Positions 1 to 52,767 of a DNA stretch of 64,000 nt are shown here, piece after piece. Source of the DNA: a virus; IMG/VR virus record IMGVR_UViG_3300009155_000040, positions 32,001 to 96,000 of that record; one strand, written 5' to 3'. The translations under genes were made by a program, and so were the position numbers. Every line of letters starts with the position of its first letter. The first letter of the stretch is position 1. The notes beneath the pieces were generated by a model. That model saw nothing but the letters and a program-made list of their open reading frames with translations, searched no databases and was not told where the DNA came from.

Positions 1-1019
1 CTGAGAAGGGCAATTTCTTCACCTTCTGTAATACCGCTATCTGCGGCAATGGTTATTGTGGTACTGGCCATTCCACTAAGACCGCCATCTGTACTAGATA
101 CTGTAAATGACCCAGTTAAAGTTGCAGGATTAAAATCAGTGCCGGTAATGCCTGCACCGGAAATTGTGTAAGGCAACACTGTACCATTTGGCACATTACG
201 TGTATACATGTATACAATTATGGAGTTACCGTCAGACACTCCAGGAAGATTAGTCTTAAAAGAAAATTCAGCTTCGTCATAGGTAAGGATGATAATACCT
301 TGCGACCCAGCTCCGCCAGCTGTAAATCCGCGAGATACATATGACGCTCCAGGGTTTGGTGTTCCGCCGGTAGCTGTCCTTTCTGTAGATACTCCTTGAG
401 ATGCACCGCCACCTCCGCCTGAACCCGTGAAGCCCTGTCCGTCGGCACCGGTTAACCCTTCGCCGCCGCCGGCGCCGCCACCGCTTGCACCCCTGGTGCC
501 ACCTGCTATTGGTCTTGCGGTTGTTTGATCAAATACTCCGCAGCCGCCGCCGCCGCCGCCACCATAAAGGGTTCCTTTATACAGATATCCTGCTGCGCCT
601 GCACCTCCAATAATCCCATTTTCAGGTAGTCCGTTATTAGCAGGACTAGGGCCGCCGCCTCTCGCACCTGCACCTTGAGACGTAACGGTAAGCACACCAT
701 CAATAGTTCTAGAGGATCGGTTACTGCCCAATGCCCCTCCACCGAGCGCACTTAGTGCTCCAAACGTAGTAGTAAAACCGGTACCGTTTGGTGCCACGCT
801 GGCTCCGACGGCATACGATATTGATGTGCCAGGACTAACTATTATATTCCTTGTAAGGAGGATACTGCCGCCGGCGCCGCCGTAACCGCCACCGTTCACG
901 TTTCCTTGTCCAGCAGCACCGCCACCAACAAGAAACACCTCACTAAGTAAAAAACAGTTAGCAGGGGGGGTCCATGTTGTGGGTGATGTACTGGTTAGTG
1001 TGACTGTTTGTACGGCCAT
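1..1019 (-). CDS. Glycine-rich virion structural protein, truncated at the window start and absent from the ORF track (MAVQTVTLTSTSPTTWTPPANC...)
   Basis: Manual translation from ATG at 1019 stays open for 339 codons to the window edge. Contains LVGGGAAG, GGGGGGG and GGAGSQGIIILTY Gly-rich motifs, then an Ig-like beta-rich region (YTRNVPNGTVLPYTISG). AAGGA RBS and TATAAATA lie upstream. Confidence 0.85.
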   Translation of the reverse strand, partial: MAVQTVTLTSTSPTTWTPPANCFLLSEVFLVGGGAAGQGNVNGGGYGGAGGSILLTRNIIVSPGTSISYAVGASVAPNGTGFTTTFGALSALGGGALGSNRSSRTIDGVLTVTSQGAGARGGGPSPANNGLPENGIIGGAGAAGYLYKGTLYGGGGGGGCGVFDQTTARPIAGGTRGASGGGAGGGEGLTGADGQGFTGSGGGGGASQGVSTERTATGGTPNPGASYVSRGFTAGGAGSQGIIILTYDEAEFSFKTNLPGVSDGNSIIVYMYTRNVPNGTVLPYTISGAGITGTDFNPATLTGSFTVSSTDGGLSGMASTTITIAADSGITEGEEIALL

Positions 1020-1044
1020 TATTGTGTTATCCTTAACTCAGGAA

Positions 1045-1052
1045 TATTTATA
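1045..1052 (-). promoter_or_regulatory. T4-type late promoter TATAAATA
   Basis: Exact TATAAATA on the minus strand in the gap upstream of the 1019 start. Confidence 0.75.
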
Positions 1053-1056
1053 TAGT

Positions 1057-3796: not shown

Positions 3797-3818
3797 GTTT
3801 GATCCACCTTAATCTTTG

Positions 3819-3826
3819 TATTTATT
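3819..3826 (-). promoter_or_regulatory. Late-promoter-like box AATAAATA
   Basis: TAAATA core in the intergenic gap upstream of the 3796 start. Confidence 0.6.
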
Positions 3827-3828
3827 CA

Positions 3829-4185
3829 TTATATAATACGAGTTGCAGCCGCTTGTCTTTGAGTTTCTAAATCTAAATATTGCTGTTGCGTTAAACTCGT
3901 TGGAATCGACAATGCTTGCTGTCTAATATGACGCAAAACTTTCCAATCTGTGCTTCTTAAAAATTCTAAATCGCTTGCATTTCTTAATTGATTTTCTTTC
4001 TGTGTTAAAATTTCAACGCCTACTGGTTGAACAGTTTTAGTAGGAATATCAAAATAGTGAGTTTGTGCTATTATGGAGTTATGATCAGCATCACTAATCT
4101 CCGATACTGACACAGTATTAGGAACGGACGGTGCATAACTTAATATGCTGATTACTTTATTATCTTCTATACATACGTAGTGCAT
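3829..4185 (-). CDS. Tail fibre assembly chaperone-like protein (118 aa; start re-called to ATG 4185)
   Basis: ATG lies 2 nt after the fibre stop codon at 4188. The C-terminal EFLRSTDWKVLRH...LETQRQAA resembles fibre-chaperone L-x-x-T-D-W motifs. Confidence 0.65.
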   Translation of the reverse strand: MHYVCIEDNKVISILSYAPSVPNTVSVSEISDADHNSIIAQTHYFDIPTKTVQPVGVEILTQKENQLRNASDLEFLRSTDWKVLRHIRQQALSIPTSLTQQQYLDLETQRQAAATRII

Positions 4186-4187
4186 TT

Positions 4188-35375: not shown

Positions 35376-36386
35376 ATGAACCTATTCAAAAAAGTTGCTT
35401 GTTTCACCGACATACATTTCGGTTTAAAATCTGGAAGCCGTACCCATAATCAAGATTGCGAAGATTTTGTGACTTGGTTTTGCGAAACCGCGAAGCGGGA
35501 AAATTGCGAAACAGCAATTTTCTTAGGCGATTGGCACCATAATCGTAGTACTACCGATGTCAGTACTATGAATTACACCGTTAGTAATCTAGAACGCCTA
35601 AGTCAGAACTTTGAAAAAGTCTATTTTATACTGGGCAATCACGATCTATTCTACAAAGACAAACGTGAAATCAACAGTGTTGAGTTTATGCGATTGTTTC
35701 CAAACGTAGTACCTATTAAAGAAACGCTGACAGAAGGCGGTGTCACTATTATGCCTTGGCTGGTTGCTGATGAATGGAAGGATATTCCTAAAATCAAAAG
35801 CAAGTATCTATTCGGACATTTAGAATTACCATTATTCTATATGAATGCCATGGTACAGATGCCTGATCACGGGCAGTTGCAAGCTGATCATTTCCATAAT
35901 CAAGAGTATGTGTTTAGTGGGCATTTCCACAAACGTCAAACCAAGGGCAATGTAACCTACATCGGTAATGCTTTCCCTCACAACTATGCAGACAGCAGTG
36001 ATGATGAACGGGGCATGATGATTTTAGAGTGGGGCAGTAAGCCTGAATATCATACTTGGCCGGGACAACCTGTATATCGAACTTATAAACTAAGTCAAAT
36101 TATTGATAGTCCAGACAAATTACTGCGTGAAAAGATGCATTGTCGTGTGACCATTGACTTGCCCATTAGTTTTGAAGAAGCAAACTTTATTCGTGAAACA
36201 TTTATGCCGCAGTACAATCTGCGTGAGCTGATGTTGATCCCAGAAAAAGTAGAAGTAGATTCTAATACAACGCCAATTGATATTAACTTTGAAAGTGTTG
36301 ATACAATTGTAATGAATCAAATTAATGCTATCGAAAGCGATGCTTACGACAAGAATCTATTATTGGACATTTATAAAGACTTATGA
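35376..36386 (+). CDS. gp47: Recombination endonuclease subunit (Mre11/SbcD-like)
   Basis: Metallophosphoesterase motifs DIH, GDWHH, GNHD, GHFH. Confidence 0.93.
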   Translation: MNLFKKVACFTDIHFGLKSGSRTHNQDCEDFVTWFCETAKRENCETAIFLGDWHHNRSTTDVSTMNYTVSNLERLSQNFEKVYFILGNHDLFYKDKREINSVEFMRLFPNVVPIKETLTEGGVTIMPWLVADEWKDIPKIKSKYLFGHLELPLFYMNAMVQMPDHGQLQADHFHNQEYVFSGHFHKRQTKGNVTYIGNAFPHNYADSSDDERGMMILEWGSKPEYHTWPGQPVYRTYKLSQIIDSPDKLLREKMHCRVTIDLPISFEEANFIRETFMPQYNLRELMLIPEKVEVDSNTTPIDINFESVDTIVMNQINAIESDAYDKNLLLDIYKDL

Positions 36387-38161
36387 TCAAAATAAAAAAC
36401 CTAACTGTTAGAAATTTTATGAGTGTGGGCAATCAAACCCAAGCCATAGACTTTGACAAAGGACAGCTTACACTGGTACTAGGTGAAAACTTAGACTTAG
36501 GCGGAGATGATAGTGGTGCTCGTAATGGTACAGGTAAGACCACAATCATCAACGGGCTCAGTTATGCTATCTACGGTACAGCATTAACCAACATCAAACG
36601 TGATAATCTCATCAATAAGATCAACGGCAAAGGCATGTTGTGTACTGTTACCTTCGAAAAAGACGGAATTGAGTATCATATTGAACGAGGACGCAAGCCT
36701 AATCTATTAAAATTCAGTATTAATGGGCAAGAACAGGATCTTGAGGATCTAGACGAATCGCAAGGCGACAGCAGAGAAACACAAAAAGCCATCGAAGAAA
36801 TGATTAGCATGAGTCACGACATGTTTAAACATCTTGTGGCATTGAATACCTACACAGAACCGTTCCTAGCTATGAAAGCTGGCGAACAAAGAAACATTAT
36901 TGAACAGCTATTAGGTATTACCCTGCTTTCAGAAAAAGCAGAATCTCTAAAAGAACTGGTTCGATTGAGCAAAGATAATATTCAAACTGAAAATACTCGT
37001 ATCGAAACTATCAAAGCCAGTAACGAACGTATTCAACAGAGTATCGAAGCACTAGAGCGTAAGCAAAAAATGTGGGACGATACTAAAGAAAAGAATATTG
37101 AAAACATTTTAAAGAATATTGATCATTTAAGTCACATCGATTCGGACGTTGAAATTGCTAATCACAGAGCATTGGCTGAATACAACACCAAACGAAAGGA
37201 TCTTGCTGATCTAAACAAATCAATTGTACGTGCAGAAGCAGACGAAGCACGTGAACTGAAACAGGTTGAAAAACTAAAGAAAGAAATTGCAGATCTAGAG
37301 GATCACAAGTGTTATGCTTGTGGACAGGATCTACATGACAGCAAGCACGAAGAAGTATTAGAGTCTAAGAAGAAAGCTCTACAAGAATCTGCACTACAGG
37401 CGCTGTCTACAAATACACAATGGATCGAACTAACTGGTGCTGTTAAAGAAATAGGTGAACTAGGACCTATGCCTAAGGTATTTTACGATAGTTTAGAACA
37501 GGCACTTAACCATAAGAACACAATTGAGAGTTTTGAAAAGGATTTAATGCTGAAAGAAGCAGAAACCAATCCTTATCTAGAGCAAATTGAAGAATTAAAG
37601 AAAACAGCCGTGCAGGAAATCGACTGGAATGCTGTAAACGATCTAGTGCGTGTTAAAGAGCATCAAGAATTCTTGTACAAACTGCTGACAAATAAAGATA
37701 GCTTTGTACGTAAACGTATTATTGATCAAAACCTAGCATTCTTAAATCAACGATTAACCTACTATCTCGATAAAATTGGTTTGCCGCACATTGTTGAGTT
37801 TCAAAATGATCTAAGTGTGGTTATTACACAGCTAGGACAGGACTTAGACTTTGATAATTTGTCACGTGGTGAACGTAATAGATTGATTTTATCGTTAAGT
37901 TGGGCGTTCCGTGATGTATGGGAAAACCTTTATCATCCAATTAATCTATTATTCATTGATGAGTTAGTAGACAGTGGCATGGATGCCAGCGGTGTTGAAT
38001 CTAGTATTGCTGTGCTTAAAAAAATGACACGTGAACGCAACAAGAATGTATTCTTGATCAGTCACCGAGACGATCTAACAAGTCGTGTTAATCATGTTCT
38101 TAAAGTTATTAAAGAAAACGGTTTCACTAGCTACAGCAACGATGTGGAGATTGTTGCTTGA
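36383..38161 (+). CDS. gp46: Recombination ATPase subunit (Rad50/SbcC-like)
   Basis: Walker A GARNGTGKT, coiled coil with CYAC zinc hook, signature LSRGE, Walker B LLFIDE. ATGA overlap with gp47. Confidence 0.95.
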   Translation: MIKIKNLTVRNFMSVGNQTQAIDFDKGQLTLVLGENLDLGGDDSGARNGTGKTTIINGLSYAIYGTALTNIKRDNLINKINGKGMLCTVTFEKDGIEYHIERGRKPNLLKFSINGQEQDLEDLDESQGDSRETQKAIEEMISMSHDMFKHLVALNTYTEPFLAMKAGEQRNIIEQLLGITLLSEKAESLKELVRLSKDNIQTENTRIETIKASNERIQQSIEALERKQKMWDDTKEKNIENILKNIDHLSHIDSDVEIANHRALAEYNTKRKDLADLNKSIVRAEADEARELKQVEKLKKEIADLEDHKCYACGQDLHDSKHEEVLESKKKALQESALQALSTNTQWIELTGAVKEIGELGPMPKVFYDSLEQALNHKNTIESFEKDLMLKEAETNPYLEQIEELKKTAVQEIDWNAVNDLVRVKEHQEFLYKLLTNKDSFVRKRIIDQNLAFLNQRLTYYLDKIGLPHIVEFQNDLSVVITQLGQDLDFDNLSRGERNRLILSLSWAFRDVWENLYHPINLLFIDELVDSGMDASGVESSIAVLKKMTRERNKNVFLISHRDDLTSRVNHVLKVIKENGFTSYSNDVEIVA

Positions 38162-38388
38162 GTTCAGAAAGTCACGATAAGATGATTGCTGCTTTTCAGG
38201 AATATTTTAAGTGGCAGGACAGATTTGAATACCGAGGCTCAGACGAAGCAGGCATTAAGGCACGATATTGGCTATCAGAAATACGCAACGAAGCATCAAA
38301 AAGACGAACAGAAATACAGGCAAAACGAGAAGAACGTAAGCTAGCCAGAAAAGGCAAGCCCGGAAGGCCACCGAAAATAACTAAGTGA
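38158..38388 (+). CDS. Small basic protein, possibly Hc1 (histone H1-like) family
   Basis: TTG start overlaps the gp46 stop. GSDEAGIKARYWLSEIRNEASKRRTEI resembles the Hc1 core. Basic tail KGKPGRPPK. Confidence 0.5.
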   Translation: MSSESHDKMIAAFQEYFKWQDRFEYRGSDEAGIKARYWLSEIRNEASKRRTEIQAKREERKLARKGKPGRPPKITK

Positions 38389-38823
38389 GTGCATTGGACG
38401 TATCAAAATCAACCCGTAGACGAAATACCAGAAGGCTATATTGGCTTTGTTTATATAATCACGAATAAAACAACCGGACAGAAGTACATAGGCAAGAAAC
38501 TAGCACAGTTTAAACGTACTAAACCCCCACTCAAAGGCAAAAAACTTAAAAGAAGAAGCACAGTAGAAAGCGATTGGCGTGAATACTGGGGTTCATCCGA
38601 TAGGTTAAACGCAGACGTCCAAGCATTAGGTCCGGAAAACTTCACAAGAGAAATACTTTACCTTTGCAAATCCAAGGCAGAACTAAGTTATTTAGAAGCA
38701 AGAGAGCAGTTTGAACGCAGAGTTTTAGAAACAGATGACTATTATAATGGCATTATAAACGTCAGAGTCGGCGGATCGAATATACTTAGACAGCGTCTAG
38801 AAGAACAAAAAAAGACAAAATAA
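38389..38823 (+). CDS. GIY-YIG family endonuclease (stand-alone, 144 aa)
   Basis: GFVYIITNKTTGQKYIGKK...YWGSS...F.REIL...E motifs. GTG start directly after the previous stop. Confidence 0.8.
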   Translation: MHWTYQNQPVDEIPEGYIGFVYIITNKTTGQKYIGKKLAQFKRTKPPLKGKKLKRRSTVESDWREYWGSSDRLNADVQALGPENFTREILYLCKSKAELSYLEAREQFERRVLETDDYYNGIINVRVGGSNILRQRLEEQKKTK

Positions 38824-38840
38824 CGTTAAATTTATTGGTT

Positions 38841-39101
38841 ATGACAAAACTAAAATGGGACAGATCATCACAGAATAGTGTGTTAACCTCGGATTATTAT
38901 CTAAATCCGAAGACTGGATTTGACCAAAAATGGCATAATCAGCGTAAAAATATGCAAGAAACCCTTGGTATACACAAAGATCATAACTGGCAAATTATCA
39001 ACAAACCCACAGGCCCACACGCAGGCAAAGTAGTTTGTAACACTTGTAACGGAAAATTCGTTGCTTGGTTACCTAAAGGCTACATATCATCTAACACTTA
39101 A
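38841..39101 (+). CDS. Hypothetical protein with H/CxxC metal-binding motif (start ATG 38841, or TTG 38835)
   Basis: GPHAGKVVCNTCNGKFVAWL. Confidence 0.6.
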   Translation: MTKLKWDRSSQNSVLTSDYYLNPKTGFDQKWHNQRKNMQETLGIHKDHNWQIINKPTGPHAGKVVCNTCNGKFVAWLPKGYISSNT

Positions 39102-39471
39102 GGTTAGCGGGCCAGCTATAATACCGCTGTGGAAAAACCGGGGAATAACCGGACACGTAACATATTGATGCACTCCCGTCGTGGAATACGACTATCCTGA
39201 AAAATCGGAAGTGAGTTTGAGGTTGAAAACAAAGATAACCAACGCATTGATATAGTATGAATGTTAGCATACGAAAACACTGGCTATAAACACTTAAACA
39301 CTAGGAACGAGGTTTAAGATAGCAATAGAAATATTGTGAAATCGTGGTAGGAAGGAAAAGCACAGAGTCCTTTAGCATACAGTGTATAAAAATACCTACT
39401 TCTAAGGTCTTGGCTAATGCAACTCGCATAATGCAAGCAAGCGGAACCGTTAAAAACGGTTCCGTCTGACT
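39102..39471 (+). ncRNA. Candidate large structured non-coding RNA (unassigned family)
   Basis: Only large gap in the window, densely tiled with helices: 39106-10/39124-28, 39138-41/39149-52, 39178-82/39188-92, 39251-56/39283-88, 39293-99/39312-18, 39322-27/39332-37 (GAAA loop), 39346-51/39395-400, 39352-56/39368-72, 39417-20/39426-29, 39441-50/39456-65. A terminator lies downstream. Confidence 0.55.
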
Positions 39472-39576
39472 AAAAACAATCTGCATAATACTTAAATTGC
39501 TTCGCAATTATAATAAGTTCAATAACTTTAACATTATCTGAAAAGAAAAAAATGCTTTGAGCGGAAGCGAAAAAGC

Positions 39577-39598
39577 AAACGAGCGTGAGCTCGTTTTT
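39577..39598 (+). terminator. Intrinsic terminator
   Basis: AAACGAGC-GTGA-GCTCGTTT followed by TT. Confidence 0.75.
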
Positions 39599-39606
39599 AA
39601 TAAATA
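39599..39606 (+). promoter_or_regulatory. Late-promoter-like box AATAAATA
   Basis: Immediately after the terminator and upstream of ORF 39635 (AGGA RBS). Confidence 0.6.
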
Positions 39607-39634
39607 AAATTATACCTTTTAGGAATCCCTTGAC

Positions 39635-40897
39635 ATGAGAATTAATCAAATACTAACTGAATCTGAACAGCAACAATTAGAAAAATTATATGAAGGACCA
39701 AAGTTTAATAAGTTTGGTAAAGCTGTAGGCGACGTAGCCGGTATGGCTGCTAAAGGCGTTGGCGCAGTAGCTGGTGGTGTTGCTGGAGCATGGGACGCTG
39801 CTAAGAAAGGATTTAGCTCTGGAAAAGCCAGAGTAGCACAAGGTGGTGATTCACCAGATGCAGTTATAGATCCCCAAAAACGAACAAGAGCTAAAGCAGC
39901 GCCAGCAGGTGGAACAGCACCCGGAGGTGCAGTAGGCGGTGGCGCAGGTGATCCAGCAGGCTATAACACAGCAGACCCATCGACAGATCCAGCAGGCAAA
40001 AAGCCAGGATTCTTAGCAGGAATGAAGCAAGGGCTATCGGGTAAAAAAGGTAAACCAGCACCAAAAAGTGCTGCGGCTCCAGCAGGAGGATCTGCTGTAG
40101 GTGGAACAGCACCAGCAGATAATGCAGCCGCTTCGGCAGCACCAGCAGATAATGCAGCCGCTGTTAATGCTGCAGGTCCAAAAGGTACAGCTCCGGCTAA
40201 ACAACAAACAGGTAAAGCTGCGGCTGCTGTAAAAAAATCCGCTGATGCAACAGCAGGTGTAGGTGCAGAAAAAGCAGGACAAACATTATACGCTCAAGTT
40301 AAATCACAAGTAGGTCAACTTGACAAGAAAGGCAAGCAACGTATCATGCAGTTGCTACAAAAATCTTTACAACAACCTGCGCCAGCAGCAGCGCCTGCAG
40401 GTGCACCAGCTGCTCCCGCAGGCAAAAAGCCAGGTGCAGCACCAGCACCAGCACATGCTAACATTCCAGGCGCAAAAACAGCTCCAGCAGCAAATGCTGC
40501 TCCAACAGCACCTGCTGCAGAACCAGCAGCGCCAGCATCTCGAGTAAATGCTGCCAACGGCGGAGTACAAGTAGGTACTAAACAATCTGAACCAGGTGCA
40601 AATTTTGATACAGCAACAGGTAAAGCACTTCCTGGTAGAGCTCTTAATGGTGTTCGTAGAAAAGCAGAAGTTGGTGCCGGTGCATTAGGCAAAGCAAGAA
40701 AAGGTATGAATGCTAGAAAAGCACCATCACCAAGTCAAGCAGAATATGATGCAGATAGAGAAGCAAAGATGGGCGTAACATCAGACAGTATCATTAGATC
40801 ACACAATGGTCTTGCTGAAACATTAATGCAGGCCATTGCAGAAGAAAAACGCAGAATGGTTGCCGAAGGTAAAATCAGTATTTTTAGAACACGATAA
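39635..40897 (+). CDS. Ala/Pro/Gly/Lys-rich low-complexity protein, putative head-internal protein (420 aa)
   Basis: N-terminus MRINQILTE, very A/P/G-rich body, late-promoter box upstream. Confidence 0.6.
   Translation: MRINQILTESEQQQLEKLYEGPKFNKFGKAVGDVAGMAAKGVGAVAGGVAGAWDAAKKGFSSGKARVAQGGDSPDAVIDPQKRTRAKAAPAGGTAPGGAVGGGAGDPAGYNTADPSTDPAGKKPGFLAGMKQGLSGKKGKPAPKSAAAPAGGSAVGGTAPADNAAASAAPADNAAAVNAAGPKGTAPAKQQTGKAAAAVKKSADATAGVGAEKAGQTLYAQVKSQVGQLDKKGKQRIMQLLQKSLQQPAPAAAPAGAPAAPAGKKPGAAPAPAHANIPGAKTAPAANAAPTAPAAEPAAPASRVNAANGGVQVGTKQSEPGANFDTATGKALPGRALNGVRRKAEVGAGALGKARKGMNARKAPSPSQAEYDADREAKMGVTSDSIIRSHNGLAETLMQAIAEEKRRMVAEGKISIFRTR
40107..40162 (+). repeat. Intragenic tandem duplication (26-nt exact copy, 30-nt period)
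   Basis: CAGCACCAGCAGATAATGCAGCCGCT at 40107-40132 and 40137-40162, encoding APADNAAA twice. Confidence 0.9.
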
Positions 40898-52018: not shown

Positions 52019-52073
52019 GTCTATGAAAGAACTTGCATAGGGCAAGACTTATGGGGTAACCATCCCCGTAGAC
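52019..52073 (+). promoter_or_regulatory. Candidate structured 5' leader RNA
   Basis: GTCTATG/CGTAGAC closing stem with internal hairpins CTTGC/GCAAG and ATGG/CCAT. Confidence 0.45.
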
Positions 52074-52101
52074 CTAGAACGTCAAATTAAGGAGAAACAA
52101 A

Positions 52102-52767
52102 ATGGGACGTCCATTAAAGAAAGATATTAACGGTAAAGAAGTATTAGGGTTACCAGGTTTATCAACAAACACACTAGCAGGTATTGCAGTCAGCGGTTAC
52201 TTTGGTGGTGCATTATCTACAAGTTATGTGCTAATCAAACAACGTGGTGCTCAAACTTACGTAGTTGCAAAGATTGAAAATTTCACATGCAACACAACTA
52301 CAGGTAGCGCAAGCATTACTAACATGAGCGATCAAGTTGAAGTTACAGTTGGTGATGAGATCAGCGGTCCTGGAATTCCATCAGGTGCAAGAATTGCTAG
52401 CCTTGACAGCTCAACAACGGCAACTATTACTGCTGCTGCAACAGCAACAGCAACAGGTATCACAGTTACTCACTGGGGTGCTTTCCAAGTTGGTACAACA
52501 GTTGACACAACTCCAAACGCTAACGGCGAAATCCTAATTCAAGGTTCTACAAGCGGTATGTTAGATGCTAACCTAGTTCCAATTCGTAAACTAACACGCA
52601 GAATTGCTTATGGTTTCCCATCAAGCCCTGTGTTATCAAATGGCTTCCAACGCAGTGAAGATGACAACACATCTACTAACCACGACGAAGCAAAATATAC
52701 ATGGTATCTAGAAAACGATTCATCAGCAGACTACATTGTATTAACAGCATTTACAACAAAGATGTAA
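52102..52767 (+). CDS. Putative virion structural protein (221 aa)
   Basis: Strong AAGGAG RBS, T/A/G-rich beta-type sequence, first gene of a late operon. Confidence 0.7.
   Translation: MGRPLKKDINGKEVLGLPGLSTNTLAGIAVSGYFGGALSTSYVLIKQRGAQTYVVAKIENFTCNTTTGSASITNMSDQVEVTVGDEISGPGIPSGARIASLDSSTTATITAAATATATGITVTHWGAFQVGTTVDTTPNANGEILIQGSTSGMLDANLVPIRKLTRRIAYGFPSSPVLSNGFQRSEDDNTSTNHDEAKYTWYLENDSSADYIVLTAFTTKM

What the first reader, a model, noticed from the sequence alone, without database searches (positions are those of the whole stretch)
39102..39471. Candidate novel ~370-nt ornate non-coding RNA
Seen: in a window where other gaps are under about 135 nt, this gap is about 530 nt, and its first 370 nt are tiled by at least ten helices. 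These include a GAAA-capped stem (39322-39337), a three-way junction (39346-39400), a 10-bp stem (39441-39465), a possible pseudoknot between loop CCAG (39112-15) and CTGG (39280-83), and a possible 5'/3' closing helix (39102-07 with 39466-71). G-U pairs in several stems favour RNA over DNA structure and the + strand. It starts on the base after a stop codon and is followed by a terminator. I cannot assign it to tRNA, tmRNA, RNase P or group I/II introns. Large phage RNAs such as GOLLD and ROOL are precedents, but membership is untested.
Basis: partly seen in the sequence, partly recalled or inferred. Interest (0 to 1): 0.8.

Follow-up and report, generated by a model that had tools for sequence, protein, structure and literature searches.

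The report
Large pseudoknotted phage RNA, orphan family
The gap holds a real, about 400-base, highly folded non-coding RNA found in hundreds of freshwater phage genomes; it is a divergent form of an RNA known only as the orphan Rfam motif Polynucleobacter-1, and its function is unknown.

Summary
Window 39089-39490 (+ strand) encodes a structured non-coding RNA.

- **Thermodynamics alone are weak.** The MFE z-score is -1.6.
- **Comparative evidence is strong.** A loop motif pulled 114 IMG/VR loci, 112 of them true relatives. In 72 distinct sequences my structure is 97.5% canonical over 87 pairs in 18 helices, with crossing helices. 42 pairs show compensatory change, against 25.7 in shuffles (0/500 reach it) and 7-11 in slid controls.
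- **Rfam does not detect the window RNA.** Close relatives carry a different RNA ("type A") at the same locus, and its 5' 141 nt is RF01718 Polynucleobacter-1 (100.8 bits). The window's "type B" shares the locus, the overall layout and a peculiar 3' module.
- **The 3' module is unexplained.** Two direct repeats of about 16 nt flank the last hairpin. They co-vary by identity through at least 13 sequence variants, with fixed differences (CUC versus UCU, G versus A). No complementary partner was found.
- **A GIY-YIG gene is usually adjacent.** A 144-aa GIY-YIG gene lies within 1.3 kb in 152 of 170 loci. 17 loci lack it, and the RNA also occurs in non-T4 phage contexts.

Best reading: a self-contained, trans-acting phage RNA of unknown function. 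I class it as a new variant of a known orphan family.

The parts
39089..39101 (+). Conserved 5' leader AUCUAACACUUAA. It overlaps the last codons and the stop of orf88. CUAACA 39091-96 pairs with loop UGUUAG 39262-67.
   Evidence: Conserved in all contexts, with or without orf88. The pairing is 100% canonical in 72 sequences, with one compensatory change in L188.
39102..39471 (+). Core of the structured RNA ('type B'). Helices:
- P1 39102-05/39468-71
- H1 39106-10/39124-28
- long-range 39131-34/39400-03
- H2 39138-41/39149-52
- H3 39162-71/39244-53
- H4 39172-75/39213-16
- H5 39178-82/39188-92
- H6 39195-97/39207-09
- H7 39221-24/39237-40
- H8 39255-59/39268-72
- H9 39293-99/39312-18
- H10 39322-27/39332-37
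- PK 39344-46/39361-63
- H12 39347-51/39395-99
- H13 39352-56/39368-72
- H14 39283-86/39373-76
- 3' hairpin 39442-49/39457-64
   Evidence: Alignment A3 of 72 distinct homologues. 97.5% of cells are canonical. 42 of 87 pairs show compensatory change, against 25.7 +/- 1.9 in shuffles (0/500 reach it) and 7-11 in slid controls.
39298..39313 (+). Invariant loop motif ACACUAGGAACGAGGU in hairpin H9. This was the signature used to collect the family.
   Evidence: 114 IMG/VR stretches matched, 112 with the whole RNA around them. The 18 matches in 596 Gb of prokaryote genomes all lack that context.
39420..39434 (+). Repeat copy 1: CAA-CUC-GCAUAAU-G-C. R1 is 39426-32.
   Evidence: Each variable position has the same position of copy 2 as its top mutual-information partner, by identity.
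39477..39491 (+). Repeat copy 2: CAA-UCU-GCAUAAU-A-C. R2 is 39483-89. It lies just outside the closing helix.
39495..39509 (+). Hairpin AAUUG-CUUCG-CAAUU, conserved in the T4-like relatives
   Evidence: Stem changes keep the pairing in relatives (AACUGCUUCGCAGUU, AAACGCUUCGCGUUU). Seen by eye, not tested statistically.
39553..39577 (+). Hairpin UGCUUU-GAGCGGAAGCGAA-AAAGCA. The inner GC-GNRA-GC is flanked by GA/GAA.
   Evidence: The same GAGCG-NNA-GCGAA core sits between variable complementary arms in type A and type B T4-like loci. Seen by eye.
39579..39598 (+). Intrinsic-terminator-like hairpin ACGAGC-GUGA-GCUCGU followed by UUUUU
   Evidence: The scan lists the hairpin on the - strand, and the U run on + follows it.
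38389..38823 (+). 144-aa GIY-YIG-only protein: SegE_GIY-YIG domain, best PHROG phrog_447. It is the usual neighbour of the RNA.
   Evidence: Pfam PF19835 E = 1.4e-36. phrog_447 E = 7e-41. Adjacency counts.
38835..39101 (+). orf88, a small CxxC protein with no family match. It is present in only part of the type B loci.

Best explanation
Window 39089-39490 encodes a self-contained, highly structured non-coding RNA of about 400 nt.

**Fold.** Its 5' and 3' ends close on each other. It has at least three pseudoknot-type crossings and several invariant, purine-rich loops.

**Family.** It belongs to a phage-only superfamily. One branch (type A) holds the Rfam motif Polynucleobacter-1 as its 5' domain. 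The window carries the other branch (type B).

**Expression (inferred).** It is transcribed on the + strand as the tail of the gp47-gp46-orf76-GIY-YIG(-orf88) unit and ends at the terminator at 39579-98. It is probably trimmed to a stable RNA around the closing helix.

**Action (inferred).** It acts in trans with host or phage factors, as an RNP scaffold, decoy or ribozyme. It is not a leader or 3'UTR of one gene.

**The neighbouring nuclease gene.** The GIY-YIG gene beside it is best read as a nuclease gene that rides next to, or was fixed beside, a conserved RNA gene. T4 segB in the tRNA cluster is the analogy, from my own knowledge.

**Shown:** the structure, the strand, the family, phage restriction and the neighbourhood. 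**Inferred:** transcription, processing and trans action.
For: - **Structure.** 87 pairs are 97.5% canonical in 72 distinct sequences, and 42 show compensatory change, against 25.7 in shuffles and 7-11 in slid controls. RNAalifold independently predicts 71 pairs, 32 of them compensatory.
- **Not coding.** Indels are not multiples of three, and open frames are not kept.
- **Family size and restriction.** 112 type B loci and more than 200 type A loci come from IMG/VR. None are found in one genome per species of GTDB.
- **Independence from any one neighbour.** Type B occurs after GIY-YIG, after GIY-YIG + orf88, before GIY-YIG, and in non-T4 contexts with no GIY-YIG.
- **Link to RF01718.** L002, with flanks 93% identical to the window, scores 100.8 bits. 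A sequence model of the type A 3' module hits the 3' modules of type B loci at E = 9e-4 to 0.014, and only there.
- **Shared grammar.** Both types show CUC-R ... hairpin ... GUNUGAC ... UCU-R.
Against: - No expression data.
- MFE z is only -1.6.
- RF01718 does not score the window or five other type B loci even at a loose E-value cut-off (E <= 10 for the window, E <= 5 for the five loci).
- A type B sequence profile finds no type A. Homology of the cores therefore rests on position, layout and the 3' module.
- The tight linkage with the GIY-YIG gene (152 of 170 loci; 63 of 64 close SegE homologues) could mean partnership rather than hitch-hiking.
- The co-varying direct repeats have no place in this explanation.
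Confidence: 0.5

Rival explanations
1. The RNA is the partner of the adjacent 144-aa GIY-YIG nuclease, with orf88 as an optional third part. The nuclease lacks a DNA-binding domain. The RNA would supply targeting or scaffolding, and the two identical R elements could be specificity segments.
For: - A GIY-YIG gene lies within 1.3 kb on the same strand in 146 of 170 loci upstream and 6 downstream.
- 63 of 64 close SegE homologues are followed by the RNA.
- The gene is fixed rather than sporadic, with more than 595 relatives.
- The protein is a bare catalytic domain.
- Weinberg 2010 already noted Polynucleobacter-1 downstream of one gene family.
- R varies between lineages, as a specificity element would.
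Against: - 17 of 170 loci have the RNA with no GIY-YIG gene within 1.3 kb, among them a separate non-T4 phage lineage.
- Most linked loci are one syntenic T4-like lineage, so the counts are not independent.
- The two R copies are identical, not complementary, so together they cannot read both strands of a duplex.
- No RNA-guided GIY-YIG enzyme is known to me.
Confidence: 0.17
2. It is a cis-acting element of the transcript. It might be a 3' structure that protects or times decay of the gp47-gp46-nuclease mRNA, or it might control the downstream terminator and read-through into the late gene at 39635.
For: - It starts on the stop codon of the upstream gene with no terminator between them.
- It is followed by conserved hairpins and a terminator.
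- Weinberg 2010 scored Polynucleobacter-1 as possibly cis-regulatory.
Against: - About 400 nt with pseudoknots and invariant loops is far more than protection or attenuation needs.
- The same RNA sits behind unrelated genes in other phages and ahead of different genes.
- The downstream gene has its own late-promoter-like AATAAATA at 39600-07 (reading from my knowledge of T4 late promoters).
Confidence: 0.12
3. The unit is mainly a mobile or recombining DNA cassette. The RNA gene is the homing target or cargo of the nuclease. The two direct repeats are DNA-level crossover or att-like cores, kept identical because recombination needs identity.
For: - Mosaicism: the window and L002 share 93% identical flanks, yet carry type B + orf88 versus type A between them.
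- The RNA occurs in several phage backbones.
- 7-nt identical cores with fixed flanking differences recall attL/attR overlap regions (my knowledge of tyrosine recombinases).
- AUCU precedes both the 5' leader and R2.
Against: - The repeats enclose only 47-93 bp, including the 3' strand of the closing helix.
- No recombinase gene is linked.
- No family member was seen with the interval deleted.
- The strong RNA-level covariation shows that the RNA itself is under selection.
Confidence: 0.1
4. It is a self-processing ribozyme. It would cut itself out at the pyrimidine tracts (AUCU before the leader, AUCU before R2). Copy 1 would be an internal mimic of the cleavage site, bound by the same pocket or guide.
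For: - Invariant loops and pseudoknots are typical of ribozyme cores.
- AUCU stands at both borders of the conserved unit.
- UGUGGA 39128-33 can pair with both CUC-RCA and UCU-RCA in 71 of 72 type B sequences.
Against: - No hit to any ribozyme family in Rfam.
- The candidate guide does not co-vary with R positions 4-7, and it has no clear counterpart in type A.
- There is no biochemical evidence.
Confidence: 0.08

Closest known systems
Polynucleobacter-1 RNA motif (Rfam RF01718; Weinberg et al. 2010, PMC2864571)
   Same: - Same genomic slot: directly after the short GIY-YIG gene that follows gp46/orf76 in freshwater T4-like phages.
- Similar first hairpin, with a G/C-then-AAUA loop, then a purine tract (GGAUGGAAA versus GUGGAAAAA), a small hairpin, and an enclosed domain with a CUAUCC...GGA hairpin.
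- The full type A RNA and the window RNA share the 3' module and a UGUUAGC hairpin loop that forms a pseudoknot.
- Function is unknown for both.
   Different: - RF01718 models only 141 nt. The type A RNA is 345-430 nt, with two further pseudoknots.
- The window RNA is not detected by RF01718.
- It lacks the motif's second hairpin, has extra helices (H4, H5), and has a different central core (H9, H10, pseudoknot, H12-H14).
- Its loop pseudoknot goes to the 5' leader, not to a 3' segment.
Large ornate RNAs of phages and prophages (GOLLD, ROOL)
   Same: Large, multi-junction, pseudoknotted RNAs with invariant loops. They are carried by phages and have no known function.
   Different: No Rfam match. 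The window RNA is smaller, at about 400 nt against roughly 580-800 nt from memory. It is not next to tRNA genes, and this 139-kb genome fragment has none. Whether it forms multimers is untested.
Free-standing GIY-YIG (Seg) endonuclease genes beside conserved RNA genes, e.g. T4 segB in the tRNA cluster (my knowledge)
   Same: A GIY-YIG gene sits immediately beside a conserved structured RNA gene. Mosaic exchange occurs around it.
   Different: The nuclease gene here is nearly universal in its lineage and has no DNA-binding domain. Homing has not been shown.
T4 gene 60 translational bypass element (my knowledge)
   Same: Matched sequences before and after a gap of about 50-60 nt. A stop-like triplet (UGA/UAA) follows the first match, and the gap holds a hairpin.
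   Different: There is no reading frame. The spacing is 47-93 nt with no multiple-of-three bias, and the second copy also carries the stop-like triplet.

Membership tests
Polynucleobacter-1 (RF01718) | Covariance-model score at or above the gathering score (37 bits) | tested here: not met
   No RF01718 match on window 38800-39700 at E <= 10, nor in five other type B loci. The syntenic type A locus L002 scores 100.8 bits.
Polynucleobacter-1 (RF01718) | Position downstream of the GOS11034 / PSSM2_218-like gene (Weinberg 2010 supplement) | tested here: inconclusive
   The window RNA follows the same short GIY-YIG gene as type A, with orf88 inserted between. I did not verify that GOS11034 is this gene family.
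Polynucleobacter-1 superfamily (full-length type A RNA) | 3' module: NNA-CUC-R7-G ... hairpin ... GUNUGAC ... NNA-UCU-R7-A, with R copies identical | tested here: met
   Present in the window (39420-34 and 39477-91), in 72 type B sequences and in 129 type A sequences. The type A module model hits type B modules.
Polynucleobacter-1 superfamily (full-length type A RNA) | Detectable sequence or profile similarity of the core | tested here: not met
   The nhmmer type B profile finds no type A sequence.
GOLLD / ROOL / OLE / HEARO / raiA | Rfam covariance-model match | tested here: not met
tmRNA | tRNA-like domain with T-loop and CCA end, plus a tag reading frame; detection by ARAGORN or Rfam | tested here: not met
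   ARAGORN finds nothing in the window or the 139-kb genome. No Rfam hit. The 3' hairpin loop UUAAAAA is not a T-loop (sequence).
RNase P RNA, group I and group II introns | Rfam covariance-model match; for introns, interrupted host gene | tested here: not met
   No hit at E <= 10. The flanks are complete genes or intergenic DNA.
skipping-rope RNA (RF02924) | Score at or above 36.7 bits | tested here: not met
   17.5 bits, E = 0.44 at 39212-39281. It does not recur in relatives.
Gene-60-type bypass element | Take-off and landing codons in one reading frame of a real gene | tested here: not met
   No conserved ORF. Spacing shows no mod-3 bias.

The most novel reading that the evidence does not exclude
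The RNA is the core of a new kind of machine. Its two identical, lineage-specific 16-nt elements would be specificity segments. One sits in the body and one on the 3' tail, and they differ only at fixed positions. Two forms are possible: an RNA-dependent partner of the minimal GIY-YIG nuclease, or a large self-processing ribozyme that reads the same sequence twice.
Probability: 0.15. Interest if true: 0.9.

Novelty: new variant of a known kind. Interest (0 to 1): 0.62.

Why it matters
- **It redefines an orphan motif.** Polynucleobacter-1 has sat in Rfam since 2010 as a 141-nt motif with 16 examples, no function and no known phage carrier. Here it turns out to be the 5' domain of a 345-430-nt pseudoknotted RNA.
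- **It places that RNA in phages.** It is carried by freshwater T4-like phages, and a second, undetected variant (the window's) spreads across at least two phage backbones.
- **It raises a testable puzzle.** Two direct repeats stay identical through at least 13 sequence variants while keeping fixed differences. Base pairing within the RNA does not explain this. It points to a copying, dual-recognition or processing mechanism that can be tested by mutating one copy.
- **It frames a question about the nuclease.** A near-universal, domain-minimal GIY-YIG nuclease gene next door makes an RNA-protein partnership worth testing.

Tried and rejected
- **Rfam.** No hit in the gap at gathering or at E <= 10. 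The weak skipping-rope hit did not recur in relatives.
- **tRNA and tmRNA.** None in the window or the genome.
- **Phage GenBank records.** blastn in distant mode found no match.
- **Folding energy.** Not distinctive.
- **Coding.** Minus-strand ORFs of 59-68 aa are not conserved, and lengths vary out of frame.
Rejected.
- **5' UUAGC or loop UUAGC with GCUAA 39413-17.** Compatible but weak. The outermost of the five pairs, 39264 with 39417, is canonical in only 68% of sequences and the other four in 97-100%, with no compensatory change. The leader-loop pairing fits better.
- **Hairpin around R1 in type B.** Not supported.
- **Complement of R.** Not found within +/-2-3 kb. No complementary co-varying column in type B or type A.
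- **R as a genome-wide signal.** It is not reused elsewhere in the 139-kb genome.
- **Bypass or endless-ORF readings.** Spacing shows no mod-3 bias.
- **Host or prophage origin.** The motif is absent from GTDB genomes apart from context-less matches.
- **Type B profile against type A.** No hits.
- **Covariance models.** A full-length model is over the size limit. The 3'-module model came out without base pairs because the hairpin was misaligned, so it is sequence only.
- **Literature.** No paper links a GIY-YIG gene with this RNA. Only Weinberg 2010 mentions the motif. Whether it is among the >10,000 unnamed candidates of Fremin et al. 2023 (PMC10690425) could not be checked.

Full report
**What is in the window.** The stretch lies in a T4-like phage fragment. 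The window is bases 32001-96000 of a 139-kb IMG/VR record. On the + strand, in order:

| Feature | Coordinates |
|---|---|
| gp47-like phosphoesterase | 35376-36386 |
| gp46-like SMC/AAA protein | 36383-38161 |
| 76-aa ORF | 38158-38388 |
| 144-aa GIY-YIG-only protein (Pfam SegE_GIY-YIG, phrog_447) | 38389-38823 |
| 88-aa CxxC ORF with no family | 38835-39101 |
| 533-nt gap | 39102-39634 |
| 420-aa ORF | 39635-40897 |

Two other gaps of 305 and 391 nt exist in the window under a crude ORF tiling. The gap is therefore long but not unique.

**First checks.** Rfam finds nothing in the gap at gathering thresholds or at E <= 10. The only entry is a 17.5-bit skipping-rope match that does not recur in relatives. 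ARAGORN finds no tRNA or tmRNA. The minimum free energy is only 1.6 sd below dinucleotide shuffles on the + strand and 1.4 sd on the - strand.

**Homologues.**
- Relatives found through the downstream protein have 93% identical flanks but a different 340-nt non-coding stretch right after the GIY-YIG gene. They share only a 17-nt match near the 3' end.
- A pattern from that match pulled about 90 true loci. These fall into two groups: a large "type A" and a small window-like "type B". All show gp46 - orf76 - GIY-YIG - RNA.
- An invariant type B loop, ACACUAGGAACGAGGU (39298-39313), then pulled 114 IMG/VR stretches. 112 of them carry the whole RNA.
- The same 16-mer gives only 18 context-less matches in 596 Gb of prokaryote genomes. 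The family is phage-only as far as these collections show.

**Structure of the window RNA.**
- On 72 distinct type B sequences (alignment A3), RNAalifold predicts 71 pairs, 32 with compensatory change.
- I extended the structure from helix-by-helix covariation. It has 87 pairs in 18 helices, with crossings.
- 97.5% of cells are canonical.
- 42 pairs show changes on both sides, against 25.7 +/- 1.9 in column shuffles (0 of 500 reach it) and 7-11 when partners are slid by 1-3 columns.
- The covariation score is 0.280, against 0.119 in shuffles and at most 0.055 in slid controls.
- Many conserved G-U pairs fix the + strand.

- **Confirmed:** the GAAA-capped stem (39322-37), the 3' stem (8 bp, 39442-49/39457-64), and the helix that closes 39347-39399.
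- **More complex than described:** the last region also holds an H-type pseudoknot (39344-46 with 39361-63, all three pairs co-vary) and a crossing helix (39283-86 with 39373-76).
- **Compatible but unproven:** the 5'/3' closing helix is canonical in 97-100% of sequences, but only one-sided changes occur.
- **Not supported:** the proposed CCAG/CUGG pseudoknot (65% and 25% canonical at two of its pairs).
- **New:** a conserved leader, AUCUAACACNNAA (39089-39101), precedes the RNA in every context. In the window it overlaps the last codons of orf88. Its CUAACA pairs with the UGUUAG loop of hairpin 39255-72 in all 72 sequences, with one compensatory change.

Open frames in the region are not conserved, and indels are out of frame.

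**Relation to a known family.**
- cmscan on the type A locus L002 gives RF01718 Polynucleobacter-1 at 100.8 bits over the first 141 nt of that RNA.
- Weinberg et al. 2010 described 16 examples. They gave no function. They noted a position downstream of one gene family with possible homology to a cyanophage gene, and they found none in sequenced phages.
- Twenty type A sequences support a much longer RNA, with 79 predicted pairs, 26 of them compensatory.
- By eye there are two further pseudoknots with clear compensatory changes. One joins the 5' end to a hairpin loop. The other joins the UUAGCGU loop to ACGCUAA.
- The window RNA is not scored by RF01718, and sequence profiles of one type do not find the other.
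- What links the two types: the identical genomic slot, comparable length, a parallel order of elements in the 5' half, a UGUUAGC loop engaged in a pseudoknot, and the 3' module. A sequence model of the type A module hits type B modules, and only those, at E = 9e-4 to 0.014 in 329 kb.

I therefore treat the window RNA as a divergent variant of the same superfamily, not as a member of RF01718.

**The unexplained 3' module.**
- In both types the last hairpin and the 3' strand of the closing helix are flanked by two direct repeats: NNA-CUC-R-G-N and NNA-UCU-R-A-N. In the window these are 39420-34 and 39477-91, with R = GCAUAAU.
- R takes at least 13 forms across lineages.
- In 72 type B sequences every variable R position has the same position of the other copy as its best mutual-information partner, by identity. 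There are a few mismatches at R positions 1 and 7.
- In 129 type A sequences the two copies agree at all four variable R positions in 129 of 129. The match is also strong at -6, -5 and +8. CUC/UCU and G/A at +7 stay fixed differences.
- No complementary partner co-varies.
- The motif is not reused elsewhere in the genome.
- The spacing is 47-93 nt with no multiple-of-three bias, which excludes a coding hop or an endless reading frame.

Candidate readings are dual recognition by one factor, a processing site and its internal mimic, template switching, or DNA-level crossover cores. None is tested.

**Neighbourhood.**

Loci with at least 1.3 kb on both sides:

| Type | GIY-YIG upstream, same strand | Downstream | Overlap unclear | None | Total |
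|---|---|---|---|---|---|
| A | 105 | 0 | 1 | 7 | 113 |
| B | 41 | 6 | 0 | 10 | 57 |

- The loci without the gene include a separate phage lineage with different neighbours.
- Seen from the protein side, 63 of 64 close homologues of the window's GIY-YIG protein are followed by the RNA.
- The gene has more than 595 relatives, so it is fixed rather than sporadic.
- orf88 is present in only part of the type B loci.
- The window differs from L002 by an exchange of [orf88 + type B core] for [type A core] between 93% identical flanks. This shows recombination at the borders of the RNA.

**Interpretation.** The data show a real, strongly constrained RNA that is portable between phage backbones. I judge a self-contained trans-acting RNA the most likely reading (0.5). 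A partnership with the GIY-YIG nuclease comes next (0.17). After that come a cis role in the operon (0.12), a mainly DNA-level cassette (0.10) and a self-processing ribozyme (0.08). These overlap in part. No expression data could be obtained.

**Verdict.** The RNA is not wholly new. It is an undetected variant of a superfamily whose other branch contains an orphan Rfam motif. Other first-stage notes on the same stretch (e1-5957143, e1-5957150) raised the nuclease-RNA module idea. I tested it only by neighbourhood counts.

Noticed in passing
window 52031-52104 (+): Rfam freshwater-2 RNA (RF02980), 62.4 bits against a gathering score of 49.9. It lies between two + strand ORFs in the late region.
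   Followed up: no
window 38835-39101: orf88 is a small CxxC protein with no Pfam or PHROG match. It is found between the GIY-YIG gene and the RNA in only some type B loci. Its last four codons are the conserved RNA leader, so protein and RNA constraints overlap there.
   Followed up: partly
window 39553-39577, and the same place in L002-L004 and many type A loci: A conserved hairpin has a GAGCG-NNA-GCGAA core (a 2-bp stem with a GNRA loop, flanked by GA/GAA) between variable complementary arms. It sits just before the terminator and may be a separate protein-binding or stabilising element.
   Followed up: no
window 38389-38823: The GIY-YIG gene is a bare 144-aa catalytic domain. Its best PHROG is phrog_447, oddly annotated 'NAD synthetase'. 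It has more than 595 relatives in IMG/VR and two alleles of about 93% and 53% identity. It looks fixed, not sporadic like typical homing endonucleases.
   Followed up: partly
L124, L163, L175, L188, L223, L230: the 70 nt upstream of their RNA copies: In the non-T4 contexts the RNA is preceded by 3-4 spaced copies of (U/C)(U/A)AGGCA / UUGGCA, ending in UAGGCAUAUCAUCUAACAC. This may be a promoter or an operator array.
   Followed up: no
L161 1-1174 (-): The most divergent type B carrier has an array of six tRNA genes about 4.4 kb downstream of its RNA copy, on the same strand.
   Followed up: no
window 752-1056 and 3797-4187: Two other long stretches have no ORF of 50 aa or more in a crude tiling. 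I did not examine them.
   Followed up: no
type A loci (alignment A1; L066, L004, L120, L096, L026): The Rfam Polynucleobacter-1 model misses two pseudoknots that show clear compensatory changes. One joins the 5' end to the loop of the fourth hairpin (GCGG/CCGC, CGCCAA/UUGGCG, CACCAA/UUGGUG). The other joins the UUAGCGU loop to ACGCUAA.
   Followed up: partly
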